A stretch of DNA of 14,419 bases from a virus. Taxonomy: Duplodnaviria; Heunggongvirae; Uroviricota; Caudoviricetes. The DNA is taken from IMG/VR virus record IMGVR_UViG_2663763232_000006. One strand, 5' to 3'. The translations under genes were made by a program, and so were the position numbers. This document shows, piece by piece, positions 1-6,166 of the stretch (position 1 is the stretch's first letter; the number at the start of each line of letters is the position of its first letter). The notes under the pieces are model-generated. The model searched no databases, was not told the DNA's origin, and saw only the letters and a program-made list of their open reading frames with translations.

Positions 1-18
1 CTCTGACTGAGAGTTTAC

Positions 19-642
19 TCACTTAGCCGCGTGTCCACTATTGCTGGGTAAGATCACAGTTATTGCTAGTAATGATATTTCGAAGCGCTCGATAGGTTCG
101 GACTTGATTTTAGATAGCTCGTTTTGCAAGCTCTCAATAACTTTTTTTGCCTCGGGGTTTTGAGGCATACGTACTTCAACTTTGTCAGCTCCAGGGCGAA
201 GTTCTATTATAACATTCCGCTTGTCGATCTGACGTAATGCAGTTTTAGACAGGTCTATTTCTTCATATTTGTATTCTACTGTAAGCGAGCCATCTTTTTT
301 AGCTACAATATTCAGGCTTTGACCTTTACTAGGGGAGCATGTTTTTTTTAGTGCTTCAGCAGCACTTTTTAATTCGGCCTGATTTGTTGAGGTTTGGAAG
401 CTCACACTAGTAGTGCTTTCCCTTGGGTCATATGTTTTGACCAGTTTTTTTATGTGTTCTAATTCATTAAATCCGTGAGGAAGTTTGGATATTTCCTCGA
501 TTAGTATTTCCTTGTCGAGTTCTGGTGATAAAAACACACCTCGATTCAACAATAATTCATGCAACTTTGCAGCGGTTATCCTTTTATGATGTAATGCATC
601 ATAAATATTTTTATCAGTTGCGAAATATAGTTTTTTAGCCAT
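19..642 (-). CDS. hypothetical protein, 207 aa; second gene of an AT-rich two-gene cargo operon (function unknown, candidate defence-system component)
   Basis: ATG start at 642-640 shares a base with the upstream gene's TAA stop (TAATG on minus strand). GGAG sits ~8 nt upstream. Lys/Glu-rich, no obvious transmembrane segment, no motif I can assign. AT-rich codon usage unlike the phage structural genes. Confidence 0.6.
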   Translation of the reverse strand: MAKKLYFATDKNIYDALHHKRITAAKLHELLLNRGVFLSPELDKEILIEEISKLPHGFNELEHIKKLVKTYDPRESTTSVSFQTSTNQAELKSAAEALKKTCSPSKGQSLNIVAKKDGSLTVEYKYEEIDLSKTALRQIDKRNVIIELRPGADKVEVRMPQNPEAKKVIESLQNELSKIKSEPIERFEISLLAITVILPSNSGHAAK

Positions 643-1643
643 TATCGTTGCTCCATGCCGATTTGTTCAAGATTATATTCAACAACAATTTTGTCTGTCT
701 TGTCGAAGTCAATTTTAAGAAAAAGTCTTTCATCCTCGCCTAAGAGCCAGTCTGTGCTGTATTTCTTTTTCGCTCTTTCAAAATGATGAATGGCATTTTC
801 ATTTGGGTGAATGTGACAATGGCGTAATACGATTGGTTTACCTTCGGTTAATATCTGATAAGTTGATAACATATCAAAGAAGTAAACGAATTCGTCTACT
901 GAATCCCCCGGTTGATTGTAATAAACAACATATCCCTCAGGGTTTTTATCCCTGAGCCAACTGAAAGCCTCATGCTTTATTATAATGTATGGTGATGTTA
1001 ATAATTCAATTGTTGCAGGTGTTGTCTGATTAATAGGGTGCTTTATTCTTGTTAGGGAAAGATCTGGATAATAATATGTGAACTTATCAGGTTGAGGAAG
1101 TTTGCCTGAACCAATTAACTTAGTTATGTCAGAAGATATGTTTATCAAATCTGATATTTTATAAGGGTCAAGCAAATGTAGTTTGATGTTTGGAGGGCAA
1201 TTTATAGATGAGTGATCTAATTTTTTTGTAATATTCTCATAGAAGTCTTTATCATATAAATTATCATGGTTATATAAGAATAATAACCCTCTTACGTTAT
1301 AACCTAAAGAATCATCATGAACATATTTCAATCGCCATTCTTCACTGACATTTGCACATTCGGTAGCTAAAGCAAGCGATGTTAAAGCTCCCTCGACTAT
1401 TTTTTTCCCAATAGTACCTTCTGCATAGCTTTTGAGGTCTGTGTTGAGATAGACCATTTCCTCCTCATATGGATCTATGTAGAAAAATACAACATCGCTT
1501 GGATGTGTTTTCTTGGAATGAGCCTCTTGGCAACAATCCCAATTCATGTCCGCTCTAGCGGCACGATCCCATTTGAACACTGAGAAAATATCATCAGAAA
1601 TCTTACCCGCGACTCGTTGTATAGCCGAAGTCTCTCCACCCAT
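642..1643 (-). CDS. hypothetical protein, 333 aa; first gene of the AT-rich two-gene cargo operon (function unknown, candidate defence-system effector)
   Basis: ATG at 1643-1641 preceded by AAGGAG about 10 nt upstream on the minus strand. Long ORF in an AT-rich region where spurious long ORFs are unlikely. No Walker A motif. His/Cys-rich cluster RHCHIHPNENAIHH near the C-terminus. No family assignable by eye. Confidence 0.65.
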   Translation of the reverse strand: MGGETSAIQRVAGKISDDIFSVFKWDRAARADMNWDCCQEAHSKKTHPSDVVFFYIDPYEEEMVYLNTDLKSYAEGTIGKKIVEGALTSLALATECANVSEEWRLKYVHDDSLGYNVRGLLFLYNHDNLYDKDFYENITKKLDHSSINCPPNIKLHLLDPYKISDLINISSDITKLIGSGKLPQPDKFTYYYPDLSLTRIKHPINQTTPATIELLTSPYIIIKHEAFSWLRDKNPEGYVVYYNQPGDSVDEFVYFFDMLSTYQILTEGKPIVLRHCHIHPNENAIHHFERAKKKYSTDWLLGEDERLFLKIDFDKTDKIVVEYNLEQIGMEQR

Positions 1644-1743: not shown

Positions 1744-1773
1744 ACTATAGCGCATGAAAATGAATGATCGCAA
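1744..1773 (-). promoter_or_regulatory. putative sigma70-like promoter for the two-gene cargo operon (-35 TTGCGA, 18-nt spacer, -10 TATAGT, read on minus strand)
   Basis: Hexamers read directly from the reverse complement of 1744-1773, about 100 nt upstream of the 333-aa ORF start. Not validated. Confidence 0.25.
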
Positions 1774-2059: not shown

Positions 2060-2353
2060 ATGAAAACCATATACAACTATGACTTTCAATACTTACGTAA
2101 AGGGGATACGCGACCTCTTGATGATGGAGAGATTGTAAGATGTTCTTCGGAAGACAATCCACTCCTGATGCTTCCGAATGTTGGGGATTATGTCGACATT
2201 ACCAACAATGAAGACCGTGAGTCGTTTGGTGGGAAAGTGAAATCAAGGTTATTCAGATATACTCGAGTAAGTGAAGACCATGTTATTTGCAACATCAATA
2301 TTGTTGTTGAAGAGGTTGAAGACTCGGTGTGGGGCACACTTGTTAAAGAGTAA
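2060..2353 (+). CDS. hypothetical small protein, 97 aa (moron-like accessory gene between cos and Q)
   Basis: ATG at 2060 with AAGGA 6 nt upstream. AT-rich. Immediately followed by a strong hairpin terminator. Convergent with Q. No recognisable motif. Confidence 0.55.
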   Translation: MKTIYNYDFQYLRKGDTRPLDDGEIVRCSSEDNPLLMLPNVGDYVDITNNEDRESFGGKVKSRLFRYTRVSEDHVICNINIVVEEVEDSVWGTLVKE

Positions 2354-2398: not shown

Positions 2399-3424
2399 CT
2401 AAAACATATAAGGTTCGAAGCGAATTATTTCTTCGCCCAGCCAGTCGTTAAGCTCCTGCAGTCGCTTCTGTAACGTCATCAGTTCGTTGCGGACAAAGAC
2501 GCGGCTGGCTTTTTCAACATCACCAAATCCCCCAACATTACTCGGCATGATTCCCATCATTTGTGGCGGTACACGGTGCGCAGCCATCATGTCATCGCGG
2601 CTGACATTTTTGATATTCAGAAACTCATCCTTCGCCGCGACTTCTGACAACGGGATGATCTGAAGCCCGTCCTTTTTGCCGTTAGGCGAGTACATGAACA
2701 GATTGCGGAAGTTACCTGGTCCTTTGGCACTTTTCATCGCATTGCGAAGGTTGTTCACGTCCTCCTGGTTCTGCGCGGCATCGGTCATGTACATGATGAA
2801 GCCTGCATGACTGCCGTTAATGTAATACTTACGGCGGAACAGCGTGGCGGACTCGTTGAGCAGGGCTGACGGAATGGCAGAAAGATAACCTGGCAGGCCG
2901 TAGATCTCCTGGTTGATGTCCGGTTCCATCAGATGAAAAATGCTGCCTTTCGTGAACTGATACGGCTGGGTTGTCATACCGTATTGCACAAACCAGTAGG
3001 TATCCAGGTCTAACCCGCGTCGGGTGTATTTTGCCAGAGCAGGCTCAAGGGCGATAACTTCACCGAAACGGTTCGTGCGTTTCTCCAGGTAGGCGTTACC
3101 AAAAACCAGATAGTCCTGTACAAAACGCGAAAAAGCCTGCTGGCTGAGCAGCGGGTGAGGGATGTAGGTGCTGGTCAGAATGTTGCACTTCACTGCAATC
3201 GGTGAGCTGTGATGCACGGCGGCGCGGAAAGTTCGCGCCAGTCCGTCGAAACTCACAGGCGGCTCATACCAACGATCCATCTGTACGCATTCCACATAGT
3301 CCAGCAGTTCGCGGCGGTCCAGAACAGGAACGGGATCACCGAAGCTGAATGCTTCGGCTGAAGTCTGGCCTTTATGCTGGATCTGTTTCGTCGACGCAGC
3401 GCGGTTCTTCTTACTCTTTCCCAT
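2399..3424 (-). CDS. Q: portal protein (P2 gpQ-like)
   Basis: ~341 aa with portal-like sequence, at the P2 Q position. ATG at 3424 overlaps the TGA stop of the upstream terminase gene. The ORF-track start at 3427 is a TTG one codon upstream, which I judge less likely. Confidence 0.93.
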   Translation of the reverse strand: MGKSKKNRAASTKQIQHKGQTSAEAFSFGDPVPVLDRRELLDYVECVQMDRWYEPPVSFDGLARTFRAAVHHSSPIAVKCNILTSTYIPHPLLSQQAFSRFVQDYLVFGNAYLEKRTNRFGEVIALEPALAKYTRRGLDLDTYWFVQYGMTTQPYQFTKGSIFHLMEPDINQEIYGLPGYLSAIPSALLNESATLFRRKYYINGSHAGFIMYMTDAAQNQEDVNNLRNAMKSAKGPGNFRNLFMYSPNGKKDGLQIIPLSEVAAKDEFLNIKNVSRDDMMAAHRVPPQMMGIMPSNVGGFGDVEKASRVFVRNELMTLQKRLQELNDWLGEEIIRFEPYMF

Positions 3425-5190
3425 CAAAAAATCTCCACAATATTGCTGGTATTGGCGGACTCGCCCTGCAGTGGTTCGTTAAACAGTGCGTGCATTGTTG
3501 CCCAGGCCAGATCGGCATGGCTGGCTTCTTCGCTGCGGCTGGCTTCATAGGTCGGGCGGTTGCCACTGGCAGTGGTAGCGCGACGGATTGCCATAAATGA
3601 CTGCGCAATGTCGGTGTGCCCGGCGTCAAACTCCAGACGGCGGTGGCTGATAATGTCGTAGGCCTTGAGTACCAGGGCGTTTTTAACGTTGGGGTTATAG
3701 ACAAACTCCCTGACGGCAGGAAAAAACGCTTTCACGTTCTCGTAAACCCCGTGACCGACGCCGGTCGAGTCGATACCGATATAGGTCACGTTATACTGTT
3801 CGGTCAGTTTTTTGATGGCGTCAGCCTGGGCGCGGAAGTCCATCCCGCGCCACTGGTGACGCTCAAGAATGCGGAACTTACCACCCGGCACGGCTGGCGG
3901 AGCCACCACCACGCATCCGGCACTGTCGCCGTTCTGCGTACCTTTTGCCGGGTCATAACCGATCCACACTTCGCGCCAGCCAAACGGGCGCAGCGCCAGT
4001 GCATGAAAGTCGGTCCAGACTTCCCAGCTGTCCACCATGCACGCCTGCAGCTCGCTGAGCGGGAACACGGACGCGAGATCGTCCACGAACTCACACATCA
4101 GCAGGTTCTGGTATTCGTCCGGGCTGTACTCCATGCGCAACTGGTCGAGGTCGAACAGGTTACAGCCGCCGCGCACCGCATCTTCCACGGTGACTATCTG
4201 GCGGTATTGCCCGTCTGCGCACAGCAGGCCGGGGGCCAGATTGCTGTGGGACAGGTCGATGTCCACCTTGTCAGCTTTGTTGCGCCCACGGTTGAACAGC
4301 GCACCGGACCAGAACGGATAAGCACTGTGGGTCAGACTGGATGGTGTGGAAAAATAGGTCTGCCGCCATTTCTTGTGAATAGCCATACCGGAAGCCACTT
4401 TGCGCAGCTCCTGGAATTTCGGTATCCAGAAATATTCATCCAGATACAGGTTGCCGTGGTAACTCTGGGCCGTGCGGGCATTGGTGCCGAGGAAGTAAAG
4501 CGTGGCCCCGTTGGGAAGCACCATCGGATCGCCTTTCAGCTCCACTTCCACTTCTTTGGCGAAGTCGATGATGTACTGCTTAAAGACGTGGGCCTGTGCC
4601 TTGCTGGCGGAAAGGAAAATCTGGTTACGTCCGGTAAGCAGAGCGTCAATCAGGGCTTCACGGGCAAAGTAAAAGGTCGCGCCGATCTGGCGTGATTTCA
4701 GCAGGTTGCGGATGCGGTTGGTTTTTCCGGCTTCCCACCAGTGGCGCTGGTAGTTGAACATGGAGGAATGGAAGATTTCTTCCAGCTTCTCAATCTGCTC
4801 ATCGGTGAAAACATTCTTTTCCGGCTGACGGCGCGGGCCTTTGTTGCGGTTGGCAACGTTAGGGTTTAAGTCGGCTTCGTTGCCGCCATTGTTAAACTTG
4901 CCGATCCGCGCGTGGCGTTCCGACTGGCGCGCCAGCAGGTCAATCTCTTTGAAATCTTTCCCTTCTTTGTGCTCCTTCATAATGAGCTGGCAGTAGCGTG
5001 CGGCGGTGGTGAGCTGCATCTGATCCAGCGGCCCATAGTCACCCCACTTGTCGCGTTTTTTCCAGCTGTGAACGGTTGCAACTTTCTCGCCCAGCATTTC
5101 AGCAATGCGGGCTACGCGGTATCCCTGAAAGTAGAGCAGCATGGCCTGCCGACGGGGATCGAGATCTGCGGGTGTCAGTGTGGTGTTCAT
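3424..5190 (-). CDS. P: terminase large (ATPase) subunit (P2 gpP-like)
   Basis: 588 aa, matching the size and position of P2 gpP. ATG at 5190. Translationally coupled to Q downstream. Confidence 0.93.
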   Translation of the reverse strand: MNTTLTPADLDPRRQAMLLYFQGYRVARIAEMLGEKVATVHSWKKRDKWGDYGPLDQMQLTTAARYCQLIMKEHKEGKDFKEIDLLARQSERHARIGKFNNGGNEADLNPNVANRNKGPRRQPEKNVFTDEQIEKLEEIFHSSMFNYQRHWWEAGKTNRIRNLLKSRQIGATFYFAREALIDALLTGRNQIFLSASKAQAHVFKQYIIDFAKEVEVELKGDPMVLPNGATLYFLGTNARTAQSYHGNLYLDEYFWIPKFQELRKVASGMAIHKKWRQTYFSTPSSLTHSAYPFWSGALFNRGRNKADKVDIDLSHSNLAPGLLCADGQYRQIVTVEDAVRGGCNLFDLDQLRMEYSPDEYQNLLMCEFVDDLASVFPLSELQACMVDSWEVWTDFHALALRPFGWREVWIGYDPAKGTQNGDSAGCVVVAPPAVPGGKFRILERHQWRGMDFRAQADAIKKLTEQYNVTYIGIDSTGVGHGVYENVKAFFPAVREFVYNPNVKNALVLKAYDIISHRRLEFDAGHTDIAQSFMAIRRATTASGNRPTYEASRSEEASHADLAWATMHALFNEPLQGESANTSNIVEIF

Positions 5191-5236
5191 GGCACAAACC
5201 TACAGCCTTGAATGAAGGCTTTCCCCGCCTGCGGTT

Positions 5237-5254
5237 TGTGTGGTTGTCGGTACA
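5237..5254. promoter_or_regulatory. TGT-N12-ACA dyad in the P/O divergent intergenic region (candidate Ogr-type late-promoter activator site)
   Basis: TGTGTGGTTGTCGGTACA is an exact TGT-N12-ACA. P2 late promoters are known to carry such a dyad centred near -55. This one lies ~88 bp upstream of the O start codon and ~55 bp from the P start codon. Confidence 0.4.
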
Positions 5255-5332
5255 AATACCGCGCATTGTTTCACTGCCCCCATCACCGCAACCATAAGGC
5301 TCCAGTAAGTTTTTTCTAACGGAGCACGGCTC

Positions 5333-6166
5333 ATGACAGTGAAAGCAAAGCGTTTTCGCATCGGGGTGGAAGGTGCCACTACCGACGGACGCGAAATCCA
5401 GCGTGAATGGCTGGAACAGATGGCAGCCAGCTACAACCCGGCGGTGTATACCGCGCTGATTAACCTTGAGCACATCAAGTCTTATCTGCCGGACAGCACC
5501 TTTAACCGCTACGGCAAGGTGACGGCGCTGTTTGCTGAAGAAATCACGGAAGGTCCGCTGGCAGGCAAGATGGCGCTGTATGCCGACGTTGAGCCAACGG
5601 AGTCCCTGGTGGAACTGGTGAAAAAAGGCCAGAAATTATTCACCTCTATGGAAGTCAGCCCGAAGTTCGCTGATACGGGCAAAGCCTACCTGGTTGGCCT
5701 GGCTGCCACTGATGATCCTGCCAGTCTGGGTACGGAAATGCTGACATTCAGCGCCAGTGCAGCCCATAACCCGCTGGCAAACCGCAAGCAGAATCCCGCC
5801 AATCTCTTTACCGCCGCAGAGGAAACGGTGATCGAGCTGGAAGAAGTCCAGGACGACAAACCGTCCCTGTTTGCCCGCGTCACGGCGCTGTTTACCAAAA
5901 AAGAGCAGTCCGATGACGCCCGGTTCTCTGATGTGCATAAGGCCGTGGAGCTGGTCGCCACTGAGCAGCAGAACCTGAGCGCACGCACCGAAAAATCCCT
6001 GTCTGAGCAGGAAGAACGTCTGTCTGAGCTGGAGACTGCCCTGCAGGCACAGCAGACCGCCTTTAACGAACTGGTGAATAAGCTGAGTCATGAAGACAGC
6101 CGCCAGGACTACCGCCAGCGTGCAACAGGCGGTAACGCCCCCGCTGACACTCTGACCAATTGCTGA
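5333..6166 (+). CDS. O: capsid scaffolding protein (P2 gpO-like)
   Basis: 277 aa. ATG at 5333 with GGAG 8 nt upstream. Position and sequence consistent with P2 gpO. Confidence 0.9.
   Translation: MTVKAKRFRIGVEGATTDGREIQREWLEQMAASYNPAVYTALINLEHIKSYLPDSTFNRYGKVTALFAEEITEGPLAGKMALYADVEPTESLVELVKKGQKLFTSMEVSPKFADTGKAYLVGLAATDDPASLGTEMLTFSASAAHNPLANRKQNPANLFTAAEETVIELEEVQDDKPSLFARVTALFTKKEQSDDARFSDVHKAVELVATEQQNLSARTEKSLSEQEERLSELETALQAQQTAFNELVNKLSHEDSRQDYRQRATGGNAPADTLTNC

What the first reader, a model, noticed from the sequence alone, without database searches (positions are those of the whole stretch)
783..1475. Sequence motifs in the 333-aa protein that may hint at a nuclease-like effector
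Near the N-terminus, VVFFYIDP followed 12 residues later by TDLK (coordinates ~1431-1475) is compatible with a PD-(D/E)xK-type core (hydrophobic strand ending in D, then D-x-K), though it is not a clean match. Near the C-terminus, RHCHIHPNENAIHH (783-824) is a dense His/Cys/Asn cluster that could bind a metal or form an HNH/His-Me-like site. Both are pattern-level observations only.
Basis: inference. Interest (0 to 1): 0.45.

Follow-up and report, generated by a model that had tools for sequence, protein, structure and literature searches.

The report
Nuclease subunit of 3HP phage defence
The 333-aa protein is Hp1 of the known prophage-borne "3HP" anti-phage system; it has a real restriction-enzyme-like nuclease domain at its N-terminus, using D50, D69 and K71 rather than D57, while the C-terminal His/Cys cluster is an unconserved local quirk and not a second nuclease site.

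Summary
The gene (642-1643, minus strand) is Hp1 of the 3HP defence system (PADLOC E 1e-239). It sits in the low-GC cargo hotspot of a P2-like prophage. Every listed homologue carries Pfam PF26115, PDDEXK_GAPS4, and newer RefSeq annotation already names it a PD-(D/E)XK nuclease.

The nuclease reading holds. The AlphaFold N-domain (pLDDT 89) matches almost only PD-(D/E)xK nucleases. D50, D69 and K71 are about 100% conserved in 268 relatives. D50 aligns with the aspartate whose mutation abolishes defence by GAPS4.

The HNH reading fails. Each His/Cys of RHCHIHPNENAIHH is kept in 13% of relatives or fewer, 40% have a deletion there, and no beta-beta-alpha-metal fold appears.

Hp1 is a GAPS4a-like subunit with a canonical DxK. 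It always comes with Hp2 and a third gene, Hp3 (79 of 79 loci). In this window an IS3-family element truncates hp2, so the system is probably dead.

In passing: four invariant residues (C37, H42, H47, C96) form a probable zinc site.

The parts
642..1643 (-). hp1: 333-aa Hp1 of the 3HP defence system (identical to WP_000508501.1), a GAPS4a-like PD-(D/E)xK nuclease subunit
   Evidence: PADLOC PDLC03004 Hp1, E 1e-239, full length. Precomputed Pfam PF26115 PDDEXK_GAPS4. RefSeq product 'PD-(D/E)XK nuclease domain-containing protein'.
1098..1643 (-). N-terminal nuclease domain, residues 1-182, with the restriction-endonuclease-like alpha-beta-beta-beta-alpha-beta core
   Evidence: AF2 pLDDT 89.4, pTM 0.85. 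The Foldseek PDB hits listed are almost all PD-(D/E)xK nucleases: HamA E 4.9e-4, R2 RLE, FokI, SduA, MUS81, BamHI, MGME1, AddB, McrC.
1494..1496 (-). D50 codon: the true first catalytic aspartate, in the invariant H47-P48-x-D50 motif
   Evidence: D in all 268 relatives. BLASTP aligns HPSD50 with HGID49 of GAPS4a-RiKo, whose D-to-A mutant loses defence.
1431..1439 (-). D69-L70-K71 codons: the canonical (D/E)xK on strand beta3
   Evidence: D69 and K71 both round to 100% (one E at 69). They lie in strand 63-73, which pairs with strand 46-56. The GAPS4a equivalent S69-x-K71 lies 3.5-4.4 A from D49 in the published AF3 model.
1473..1475 (-).
   Evidence: 75% D, otherwise E/N/H/S/Q. It lies at the start of the 57-62 hairpin loop.
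1632..1634 (-). E4 codon: invariant acidic residue in helix alpha1, possibly a further metal ligand of the active site (inference)
   Evidence: 95% E; the rest are N-terminal gaps. Helix 2-22.
1356..1535 (-). Span holding the invariant C37 (1533-1535), H42 (1518-1520), H47 (1503-1505) and C96 (1356-1358): a probable structural Cys2His2 (zinc-type) site
   Evidence: All four are about 100% conserved in 268 relatives and also in GAPS4a. The equivalent atoms in the published GAPS4a-RiKo AF3 model are 3.1-3.9 A apart.
642..1097 (-). C-terminal domain, residues 183-333. Fold not assigned; inferred to dock onto Hp2
   Evidence: Confident model but no significant structural match. Only residues up to about 226 align with GAPS4a.
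783..824 (-). RHCHIHPNENAIHH (residues 274-287): a lineage-specific His/Cys-rich loop, not a catalytic or conserved metal site
   Evidence: Only R274 (84% R, 9% K) and the following F288 (90%) are conserved. Each His/Cys is kept in 13% or fewer, and 40% have a deletion at 276-277. DSSP shows strand 271-275, a loop, then helix 284-298.
57..642 (-). 5' part of hp2 (codons 1-195 of 359), the GAPS4b-like partner. Its start overlaps the hp1 stop (TAATG).
   Evidence: PADLOC Hp2 match to positions 1-195 of a 359-position profile. Intact 359-aa Hp2 in L001. NCBIfam GapS4b E 2e-5 and Pfam GAPS4b_N weak.
1..56 (.). Terminal 56 bp of an IS3-family insertion sequence that interrupts hp2 and adds a 12-aa foreign tail and a stop
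   Evidence: Intact loci match the window only from base 57. The 56-mer occurs at 14,660 places in 3,955 E. coli genomes and abuts an IS3-family transposase gene.
1744..1773 (-). Candidate sigma-70 promoter about 100 nt upstream of hp1 (weak, consensus match only)
   Evidence: TTGCGA-18-TATAGT, 9 of 12. The number of such sites is no higher than in shuffles.

Best explanation
The 333-aa ORF is Hp1, the enzymatic subunit of the three-gene 3HP anti-phage system carried in the cargo hotspot of P2-like prophages.

Its N-terminal ~180 residues form a PD-(D/E)xK (restriction-endonuclease-like) nuclease domain. The active site is D50, at the start of strand beta2 in the invariant HPxD motif, together with D69-x-K71 on the neighbouring strand beta3. 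E4 on helix alpha1 probably contributes as well. A separate invariant C37/H42/H47/C96 cluster probably holds a structural zinc.

Hp1 is a diverged relative of GAPS4a. By analogy with GAPS4, I infer that it assembles through its C-terminal half with Hp2 (GAPS4b-like), and in this clade with an obligatory third protein, Hp3. I also infer that it is held inactive until infection and then degrades DNA non-selectively, aborting the infection.

Shown here: identity as Hp1, the fold, residue conservation, homology to GAPS4a, and the fixed three-gene architecture.
Inferred: DNase activity, complex formation, the trigger, and the zinc.

The C-terminal His/Cys cluster has no conserved role. In this particular genome an IS3-family element truncates hp2 after codon 195, so the system is most likely non-functional.
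For: - Identity: PADLOC Hp1 E 1e-239 and Hp2. The intact Hp1-Hp2-Hp3 locus lies between the portal and the DinI/gpA genes of P2-like prophages.
- Defence phenotype: Rousset 2022 describes a P2-hotspot system of three genes with no predicted domain that protects against P1 (PMC9122126).
- Family: Pfam PF26115 PDDEXK_GAPS4 on every listed homologue.
- Structure: AF2 models with pLDDT 86.9 and 89.4. Foldseek with the N-domain finds HamA (8vx9_A, E 4.9e-4, prob 0.94), R2 RLE (prob 0.98), FokI, SduA, MUS81, BamHI, MGME1, AddB, MspJI and McrC.
- Conservation in 268 relatives (27-100% identity): H47, D50, D69, K71, S72 and N125 about 100%; E4 95%, with the rest gaps.
- Homology to GAPS4a: hhalign of the Hp1 profile gives 96-97.5% probability, E 1e-9 to 6e-12, over about 200 columns. 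BLASTP aligns HPSD50 with HGID49.
- GAPS4 biology: D59A/D49A abolishes defence; the complex is an a2b2 heterotetramer; it is a DNA-break-triggered, non-selective DNase (10.1101/2025.09.07.674715).
- Geometry: in that paper's AF3 model, D49, S69 and K71 lie 3.5-4.4 A apart.
- Architecture: the Hp1-Hp2-Hp3 order is conserved in 79 of 79 loci with enough flanking DNA.
Against: - No biochemical data exist for Hp1 itself, and nothing here tests the substrate (DNA or RNA) or the trigger.
- Foldseek TM-scores are modest (0.28-0.45), and only one hit passes E 1e-3.
- MAFFT and hhalign do not place GAPS4a S69-x-K71 exactly on Hp1 D69-x-K71. They are off by 1-3 residues in that strand, so that equivalence rests on strand register and function.
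- I could not read coordinates of my own Hp1 model, so the D50-D69-K71 clustering is inferred from hairpin register and from the GAPS4a model.
- Homology of Hp2 to GAPS4b is weak: hhalign against one GAPS4b sequence gives E 0.03 over the N-terminal 49 residues, and the NCBIfam score of 23.5 bits is far below the 300-bit cut-off.
- 3HP protected only against P1 in the published eight-phage panel, whereas GAPS4-RiKo is broad. Together with the extra Hp3, this means trigger and regulation may differ.
Confidence: 0.78

Rival explanations
1. Hp1 carries a second catalytic centre, or its only one, in the C-terminal RHCHIHPNENAIHH cluster: an HNH/His-Me finger or a metal-binding site.
For: Six His/Cys in 14 residues is unusual for this protein's composition (0.3% of shuffles). 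The cluster is kept, in part, among the closest enterobacterial relatives.
Against: Each His/Cys is conserved in only 6-13% of 268 relatives, and 40% have a deletion at 276-277. DSSP shows a single strand, a loop and a helix, with no beta-hairpin before the helix. There is no His-Me nuclease among the 50 Foldseek hits listed for either model. The region lies beyond the part of Hp1 that aligns with GAPS4a.
Confidence: 0.03
2. The PD-(D/E)xK site uses D57 with D69-x-K71.
For: The spacing of 12 residues and the preceding hydrophobic strand fit the textbook pattern. D57 is still the majority residue at 75%.
Against: D57 is replaced by N, H, S or Q in 14% of relatives, while D50 never varies. D57 begins the hairpin loop 57-62, and K71 is at the far end of the return strand. 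The experimentally essential aspartate of GAPS4a aligns with D50.
Confidence: 0.04
3. Hp1 is a nuclease-fold protein that acts on something other than bulk DNA (RNA, or a specific structure), or serves mainly as a sensor or scaffold, with Hp2 or Hp3 as the true effector.
For: PD-(D/E)xK domains also occur in RNases and in binding modules (established knowledge). Hp2 and Hp3 have no recognisable domains. The phage range of 3HP differs from that of GAPS4.
Against: The full catalytic set E4/D50/D69/K71 is invariant over wide divergence, which argues for catalysis. The homologous GAPS4 degrades DNA in vivo, and this depends on the equivalent aspartate.
Confidence: 0.12

Closest known systems
GAPS4a of the GAPS4 system (Mahata et al., bioRxiv 10.1101/2025.09.07.674715; Pfam PF26115 PDDEXK_GAPS4)
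   Same: - Same N-terminal domain (hhalign 96-97.5%, about 200 aligned columns).
- Same invariant W25, C37, H42, H47, D50, Y55 and C96.
- The catalytic aspartate is in the same H-x-x-D motif.
- The partner gene directly downstream has a GAPS4b_N-like N-terminus.
- Similar sizes: a+b is about 690 aa.
   Different: - Pairwise identity is only about 23-25%, and BLASTP is significant only over residues 1-55.
- The motif is HPxD...DxK (canonical acidic residue) rather than HGxD...SxK.
- The last ~100 residues do not align.
- An obligatory third gene, Hp3, is present in 79 of 79 loci, whereas GAPS4 works as two genes.
- The signature string NTDLKSY does not occur in the stored (truncated) copy of that paper's homologue file.
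- The published phage range differs: P1 only, against a broad range.
3HP / Rst_3HP (Rousset et al. 2022, PMC9122126; PADLOC Hp1/Hp2/Hp3)
   Same: This is that system: full-length, near-perfect HMM matches, and the same P2-like hotspot next to the portal gene.
   Different: In this window the system is incomplete: hp2 is cut by an IS3-family element and hp3 lies outside the window. The 2022 paper reports no clear predicted domain for the three genes, and a 2024 survey preprint lists Rst_3HP as unclassified. The nuclease assignment comes from later Pfam and RefSeq annotation and from this analysis.
HamA of Hachiman, SduA of Shedu, FokI cleavage domain and other PD-(D/E)xK defence nucleases
   Same: Same catalytic fold, and these are the best structural matches. 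Like HamA, which works with the helicase HamB (established knowledge), Hp1 appears to depend on partner proteins.
   Different: No detectable sequence similarity: a profile search of PDB sequences found nothing relevant. TM-scores are only 0.28-0.45. The partners are different, with no helicase.
Restriction-like endonuclease (RLE) domain of R2 retrotransposon protein (9nl2_A)
   Same: Highest Foldseek probability (0.98). From memory, the R2 RLE is also accompanied by a Cys/His zinc knuckle; this is a lead, not tested.
   Different: Unrelated biology and no sequence similarity. The zinc-site equivalence was not examined.

Membership tests
PD-(D/E)xK phosphodiesterase superfamily | Restriction-endonuclease-like alpha-beta-beta-beta-alpha-beta core fold | tested here: met
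   DSSP order: H3-23, E26-36, E46-56, E63-73, H80-99, E115-125. The Foldseek hits listed are almost exclusively PD-(D/E)xK nucleases.
PD-(D/E)xK phosphodiesterase superfamily | Conserved D on beta2 and (D/E)xK on beta3 | tested here: met
   D50, D69 and K71 are about 100% conserved in 268 relatives and lie on the paired strands 46-56 and 63-73.
PD-(D/E)xK phosphodiesterase superfamily | Divalent-metal-dependent phosphodiester cleavage | not testable with these tools
   Needs an enzyme assay. The only evidence is indirect: DNA degradation by the homologous GAPS4.
GAPS4a (Pfam PF26115 PDDEXK_GAPS4) | Significant match to the family profile or its sequences | tested here: met
   Precomputed PF26115 hit on Hp1 and on all 120 listed homologues. 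hhalign against GAPS4a sequences gives 97.5%, E 6e-12. The local Pfam copy gave no hit for Hp1 (it apparently lacks PF26115), and NCBIfam has no hit for Hp1.
GAPS4a (Pfam PF26115 PDDEXK_GAPS4) | Published motif HGxD...SxK | tested here: not met
   Hp1 and its clade have HPxD...DxK: P48 99%, D69 100%. This is the same architecture in a more canonical form.
GAPS4 system | Adjacent GAPS4b partner gene | tested here: inconclusive
   Hp2 hits Pfam GAPS4b_N (weak for the E. coli protein, E at most 1e-5 for V. fluvialis) and NCBIfam GapS4b at E 2e-5 but only 23.5 bits against a 300-bit cut-off. hhalign against GAPS4b-RiKo finds only the N-terminal 49 residues, E 0.03.
GAPS4 system | Two-gene system | tested here: not met
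   A third co-directional gene, Hp3, follows in 79 of 79 loci with at least 2 kb downstream. Hp3 resembles neither GAPS4a/b nor Hp1/Hp2.
3HP (Rst_3HP / PADLOC 3HP) | Hp1 HMM match | tested here: met
   PDLC03004, E 1.1e-239, positions 1-333 of 333.
3HP (Rst_3HP / PADLOC 3HP) | Complete Hp1+Hp2+Hp3 gene set | tested here: not met
   In this window Hp2 matches only profile positions 1-195 of 359 and then runs into an IS3-family end. Hp3 is not in the window. The set is complete in reference loci.
3HP (Rst_3HP / PADLOC 3HP) | Location in the P2-like prophage hotspot next to portal gene Q | tested here: met
   Portal, terminase, scaffold and capsid genes flank it in the window and in the reference loci.
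HNH / His-Me finger nucleases | Beta-beta-alpha-metal fold | tested here: not met
   Residues 271-298 form one strand, a loop and a helix. There are no His-Me hits among the Foldseek matches listed.
HNH / His-Me finger nucleases | Conserved catalytic His and Asn/His metal ligands | tested here: not met
   No His/Cys of 274-287 is conserved above 13%, and deletions are frequent.

The most novel reading that the evidence does not exclude
3HP is a distinct three-component sister lineage of GAPS4. It keeps the ancestral canonical D...DxK active site, carries a structural Cys2His2 zinc site next to it (so the 'H' of the published HGxD motif would be a metal ligand, not a catalytic residue), and uses the fast-evolving, obligatory Hp3 as an extra sensor or gate. 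That extra component would give it a different trigger or phage range from the DNA-break-sensing two-gene GAPS4.
Probability: 0.4. Interest if true: 0.45.

Novelty: new member of a known kind. Interest (0 to 1): 0.3.

Why it matters
3HP was described in 2022 as three genes with no clear predicted domain, and a 2024 survey preprint still listed it as unclassified. Tying Hp1 to the GAPS4a nuclease family, with the correct catalytic residues, gives 3HP a testable mechanism: a DNase effector held in a multi-subunit complex. It also supplies specific point mutants to make, and it marks Hp3 as the component that sets 3HP apart from GAPS4.

The gain is incremental. Pfam and RefSeq already label the protein a PD-(D/E)xK nuclease, and the copy in this window is disrupted.

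Tried and rejected
- A profile search of PDB sequences with the Hp1 alignment found nothing relevant; the best hit was SMUBP-2 at E 1.
- Foldseek with the full-length model gave no hit at E of 1e-3 or better, only weak local hits to PD-(D/E)xK proteins. Re-predicting residues 1-182 alone sharpened this.
- The local Pfam-A scan and NCBIfam gave no family for Hp1. The PF26115 assignment comes from hits precomputed in the protein collections.
- PHROGs lists all three proteins, and the neighbouring 97-aa ORF, as unknown function.
- Looking up the Hp1, Hp2 and GAPS4 accessions in the supplements of the GAPS4 preprint found nothing. I transcribed the GAPS4a and GAPS4b RiKo sequences from the AF3 cif instead.
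- BLASTP of Hp2 against GAPS4b was not significant, and hhalign was only marginal.
- Hp3 showed no similarity to Hp1, Hp2, GAPS4a or GAPS4b.
- No paper in the held library mentions 3HP and GAPS4 together.
- I could not measure distances in my own models, because their coordinates are not exposed. I used strand register and the published GAPS4a model instead.

Full report
CONTEXT

The window is the late region of a P2-like prophage. It holds the portal gene (2399-3427, minus strand), the large terminase (3424-5190, minus strand), and then scaffold, capsid, small terminase, lysis, tail and baseplate genes on the plus strand. At the left end, bases 1 to about 1500 have 33-40% GC against 55-60% for the phage backbone. 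Two co-directional, overlapping minus-strand genes lie there: a 333-aa ORF (642-1643) and a 207-aa ORF (19-642).

PADLOC identifies them as Hp1 (PDLC03004, E 1e-239, full length) and the first 195 of 359 positions of Hp2 (PDLC03005). In intact E. coli loci the same DNA encodes three proteins between the portal gene and the DinI/gpA replication genes:
- Hp1, WP_000508501.1
- Hp2, 359 aa, WP_001085272.1
- Hp3, 227 aa, WP_000756244.1

This matches the P2-hotspot system that Rousset et al. [quoted passage not shown] DefenseFinder lists it as Rst_3HP.

THE OBSERVATION

- VVFFYIDP is residues 51-58.
- TDLK is residues 68-71.
- RHCHIHPNENAIHH is residues 274-287, at 783-824.

As a bare pattern the N-terminal motif is not special; a loose version occurs in 11% of shuffles. 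The His/Cys density is unusual (0.3% of shuffles).

CONSERVATION

A search of about 5.8 billion proteins gave 185 relatives. All 120 listed carry Pfam PF26115, for which UniRef gives the name "GAPS4 PD-(D/E)XK nuclease domain-containing protein". A profile search of 1.84 billion representatives found 557 clusters.

In an alignment of 268 family members (27-100% identity, median 38%):
- C37, H42, H47, D50, D69, K71, S72, C96 and N125 all round to 100%, and W25, P48, Y55 and P58 to 99%.
- E4 is 95%, and the remainder are N-terminal gaps.
- D57 is only 75% D, otherwise E, N, H, S or Q.
- Within 274-287, only R274 is conserved (84% R, 9% K). Each His and Cys is present in 6-13% of sequences, and 40% lack residues 276-277.

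It is not met for D69 and K71.

STRUCTURE

AlphaFold2 gave a confident model with a 37-sequence alignment: pLDDT 86.9, pTM 0.86. Residues 1-182 alone gave pLDDT 89.4.

The N-domain has the order helix 3-23, strands 26-36, 46-56 and 63-73, helix 80-99, strand 115-125. This is the PD-(D/E)xK core. Strands 46-56 and 63-73 form a hairpin with loop 57-62. In that register D50 faces D69, with K71 on the same face. D57 sits at the hairpin tip, an estimated 20 A or more from K71. This is an inference from strand register, because the coordinates of my model were not available.

Foldseek against the PDB with the full model gave no significant hit, and no HNH or His-Me protein among the 50 hits listed. 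With the N-domain the hits listed are almost all PD-(D/E)xK nucleases:
- HamA of Hachiman (8vx9_A, E 4.9e-4, probability 0.94)
- R2 restriction-like endonuclease (probability 0.98)
- FokI, SduA of Shedu, MUS81, BsmI, BamHI, MGME1, AddB, MspJI and McrC

TM-scores are modest (0.28-0.45), so Hp1 is a divergent member of the fold.

Around the His/Cys cluster the confident model shows strand 271-275, a loop, and helix 284-298. There is no beta-hairpin, so it is not a beta-beta-alpha-metal finger.

LINK TO GAPS4

The preprint 10.1101/2025.09.07.674715 reports the following:
- GAPS4a is a divergent PD-(D/E)xK protein with the motif HGxD...SxK.
- Mutating the aspartate (D59A in the Vibrio system, D49A in E. 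coli RiKo) abolishes defence.
- GAPS4a and GAPS4b form a 2:2 heterotetramer.
- The system degrades phage and host DNA once DNA breaks are sensed.

I transcribed GAPS4a and GAPS4b of RiKo from the authors' AF3 file.
- BLASTP aligns Hp1 residues 1-55 with GAPS4a 1-54 (E 3e-7), which places HPSD50 on HGID49.
- Profile comparisons give 95.7-97.5% probability, E 1e-8 to 6e-12, over about 200 columns, covering Hp1 residues 2-226.
- W25, C37, H42, H47, D50, Y55 and C96 are invariant across both families.
- In the authors' model, D49 OD2 to S69 OG is 3.5 A, S69 OG to K71 NZ is 3.9 A, and D49 OD2 to K71 NZ is 4.4 A (computed from the coordinates).

The Hp1 triad is therefore D50/D69/K71, with a canonical aspartate where GAPS4a has serine. 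One caveat: the automatic alignments misplace the beta3 strand by 1-3 residues, so the equivalence of S69-x-K71 and D69-x-K71 rests on strand register and function.

SYSTEM ARCHITECTURE

Hp2 is only weakly GAPS4b-like:
- Pfam GAPS4b_N is a weak hit for E. coli Hp2 and a stronger one for its V. fluvialis homologue.
- NCBIfam GapS4b gives E 2e-5 over nearly the full length, but 23.5 bits against a 300-bit cut-off.
- hhalign against one GAPS4b sequence finds only the N-terminal 49 residues, E 0.03.

Hp3 resembles none of the other proteins.

I examined 83 loci: 80 from a scan of 185,579 species genomes and three already in hand. They span Proteobacteria, Cyanobacteria, Verrucomicrobia, Clostridia and others. 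Every one of the 79 with at least 2 kb downstream of hp1 has hp1-hp2-hp3 in the same order and orientation, usually overlapping. The four exceptions are contig ends. Hp3 evolves fast, at 16-22% identity between E. coli, Vibrio and Delftia.

The Hp1 clade is therefore a three-gene relative of the two-gene GAPS4. The signature NTDLKSY does not occur in the stored (truncated) copy of the GAPS4 homologue file. No paper in the held library mentions both systems. A 2024 survey preprint still lists Rst_3HP as unclassified. The databases have caught up, however: Pfam covers Hp1, and recent PGAP runs call it a "PD-(D/E)XK nuclease domain-containing protein".

STATE OF THIS COPY

Reference loci match the window only from base 57. 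Bases 1-56 are the end of an IS3-family element found at 14,660 places in E. coli genomes, next to an IS3-family transposase gene. The insertion cuts hp2 after codon 195 and adds 12 foreign residues.

Neither GAPS4 gene protects without the other. By analogy, this 3HP copy is probably inactive, although hp1 itself is intact and identical to the common allele.

VERDICT

The C-terminal HNH or metal idea is wrong.

The protein is the nuclease subunit of an already described defence system, and its nuclease family is already in Pfam. What this analysis adds:
- the explicit link between 3HP and GAPS4
- the corrected catalytic residues
- the obligatory third gene
- a probable Cys2His2 site
- the IS3-family disruption of hp2 in this genome

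Interest is modest.

Noticed in passing
window 1356-1535 (codons C37, H42, H47, C96 of hp1): Four residues, about 100% conserved in 268 Hp1 relatives and also in GAPS4a, look like a tetrahedral Cys2His2 (zinc-type) site. In the published AF3 model of GAPS4a-RiKo the equivalent atoms (C36 SG, H41 ND1, H46 NE2, C97 SG) are all 3.1-3.9 A apart, and about 13 A from the D49 carboxylate. The 'H' of the published HGxD motif may therefore be a metal ligand rather than a catalytic residue. The words zinc, metal and cysteine do not occur in the preprint's main text.
   Followed up: partly
window 1-56 and 19-642: The end of an IS3-family insertion sequence interrupts hp2 after codon 195 and creates a 207-aa truncated product with a 12-aa foreign tail. 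The rest of hp2 and hp3 lie outside the window, so the defence system is probably inactive in this genome.
   Followed up: yes
L096 (NZ_CP024275.1, E. coli O6:H16 M9682-C1) 3086-5641: An independent disruption of the same system: two IS1 copies split hp1 into three fragments. Truncated Hp1 alleles are also common in the protein collection; for example P0013, 232 aa, stands for 152 member sequences. Recurrent inactivation would fit a fitness cost like the 'double-edged sword' reported for GAPS4.
   Followed up: partly
L016-L095 (80 genome loci), plus L001, L003 and L005: The order hp1-hp2-hp3 is kept in 79 of 79 loci with enough downstream DNA, across several phyla. Outside the enterobacterial P2-like prophages examined, an integrase or serine recombinase gene lies next to it in the two contexts annotated (V. 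fluvialis, Delftia). Hp3 is very divergent (16-22% identity) and has no detectable domain.
   Followed up: partly
window ~1790-1885: Between hp1 and the 97-aa ORF there is a GC-rich stretch, GGCGTGGCGGGGATACGAG on the plus strand at about 1857-1875. From memory it resembles the P2 cos cohesive-end sequence. A terminator-like hairpin lies at 1794-1811. If this is cos, the 3HP cassette sits at one end of the packaged linear genome. Not checked against a phage record.
   Followed up: no
window 2060-2353 (+): A 97-aa ORF lies between the defence cassette and the portal gene. It is conserved at this position in some of the P2-like prophages examined (WP_000849765.1; phrog_12676, unknown function) and has no Pfam, NCBIfam or PADLOC hit.
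   Followed up: partly
preprint 10.1101/2025.09.07.674715, text and figure legends: The catalytic mutant of GAPS4a-RiKo is called D49A in one place and D59A in others. The RiKo sequence in the authors' AF3 file has the HGID aspartate at position 49, so D59 is the Vibrio numbering.
   Followed up: yes
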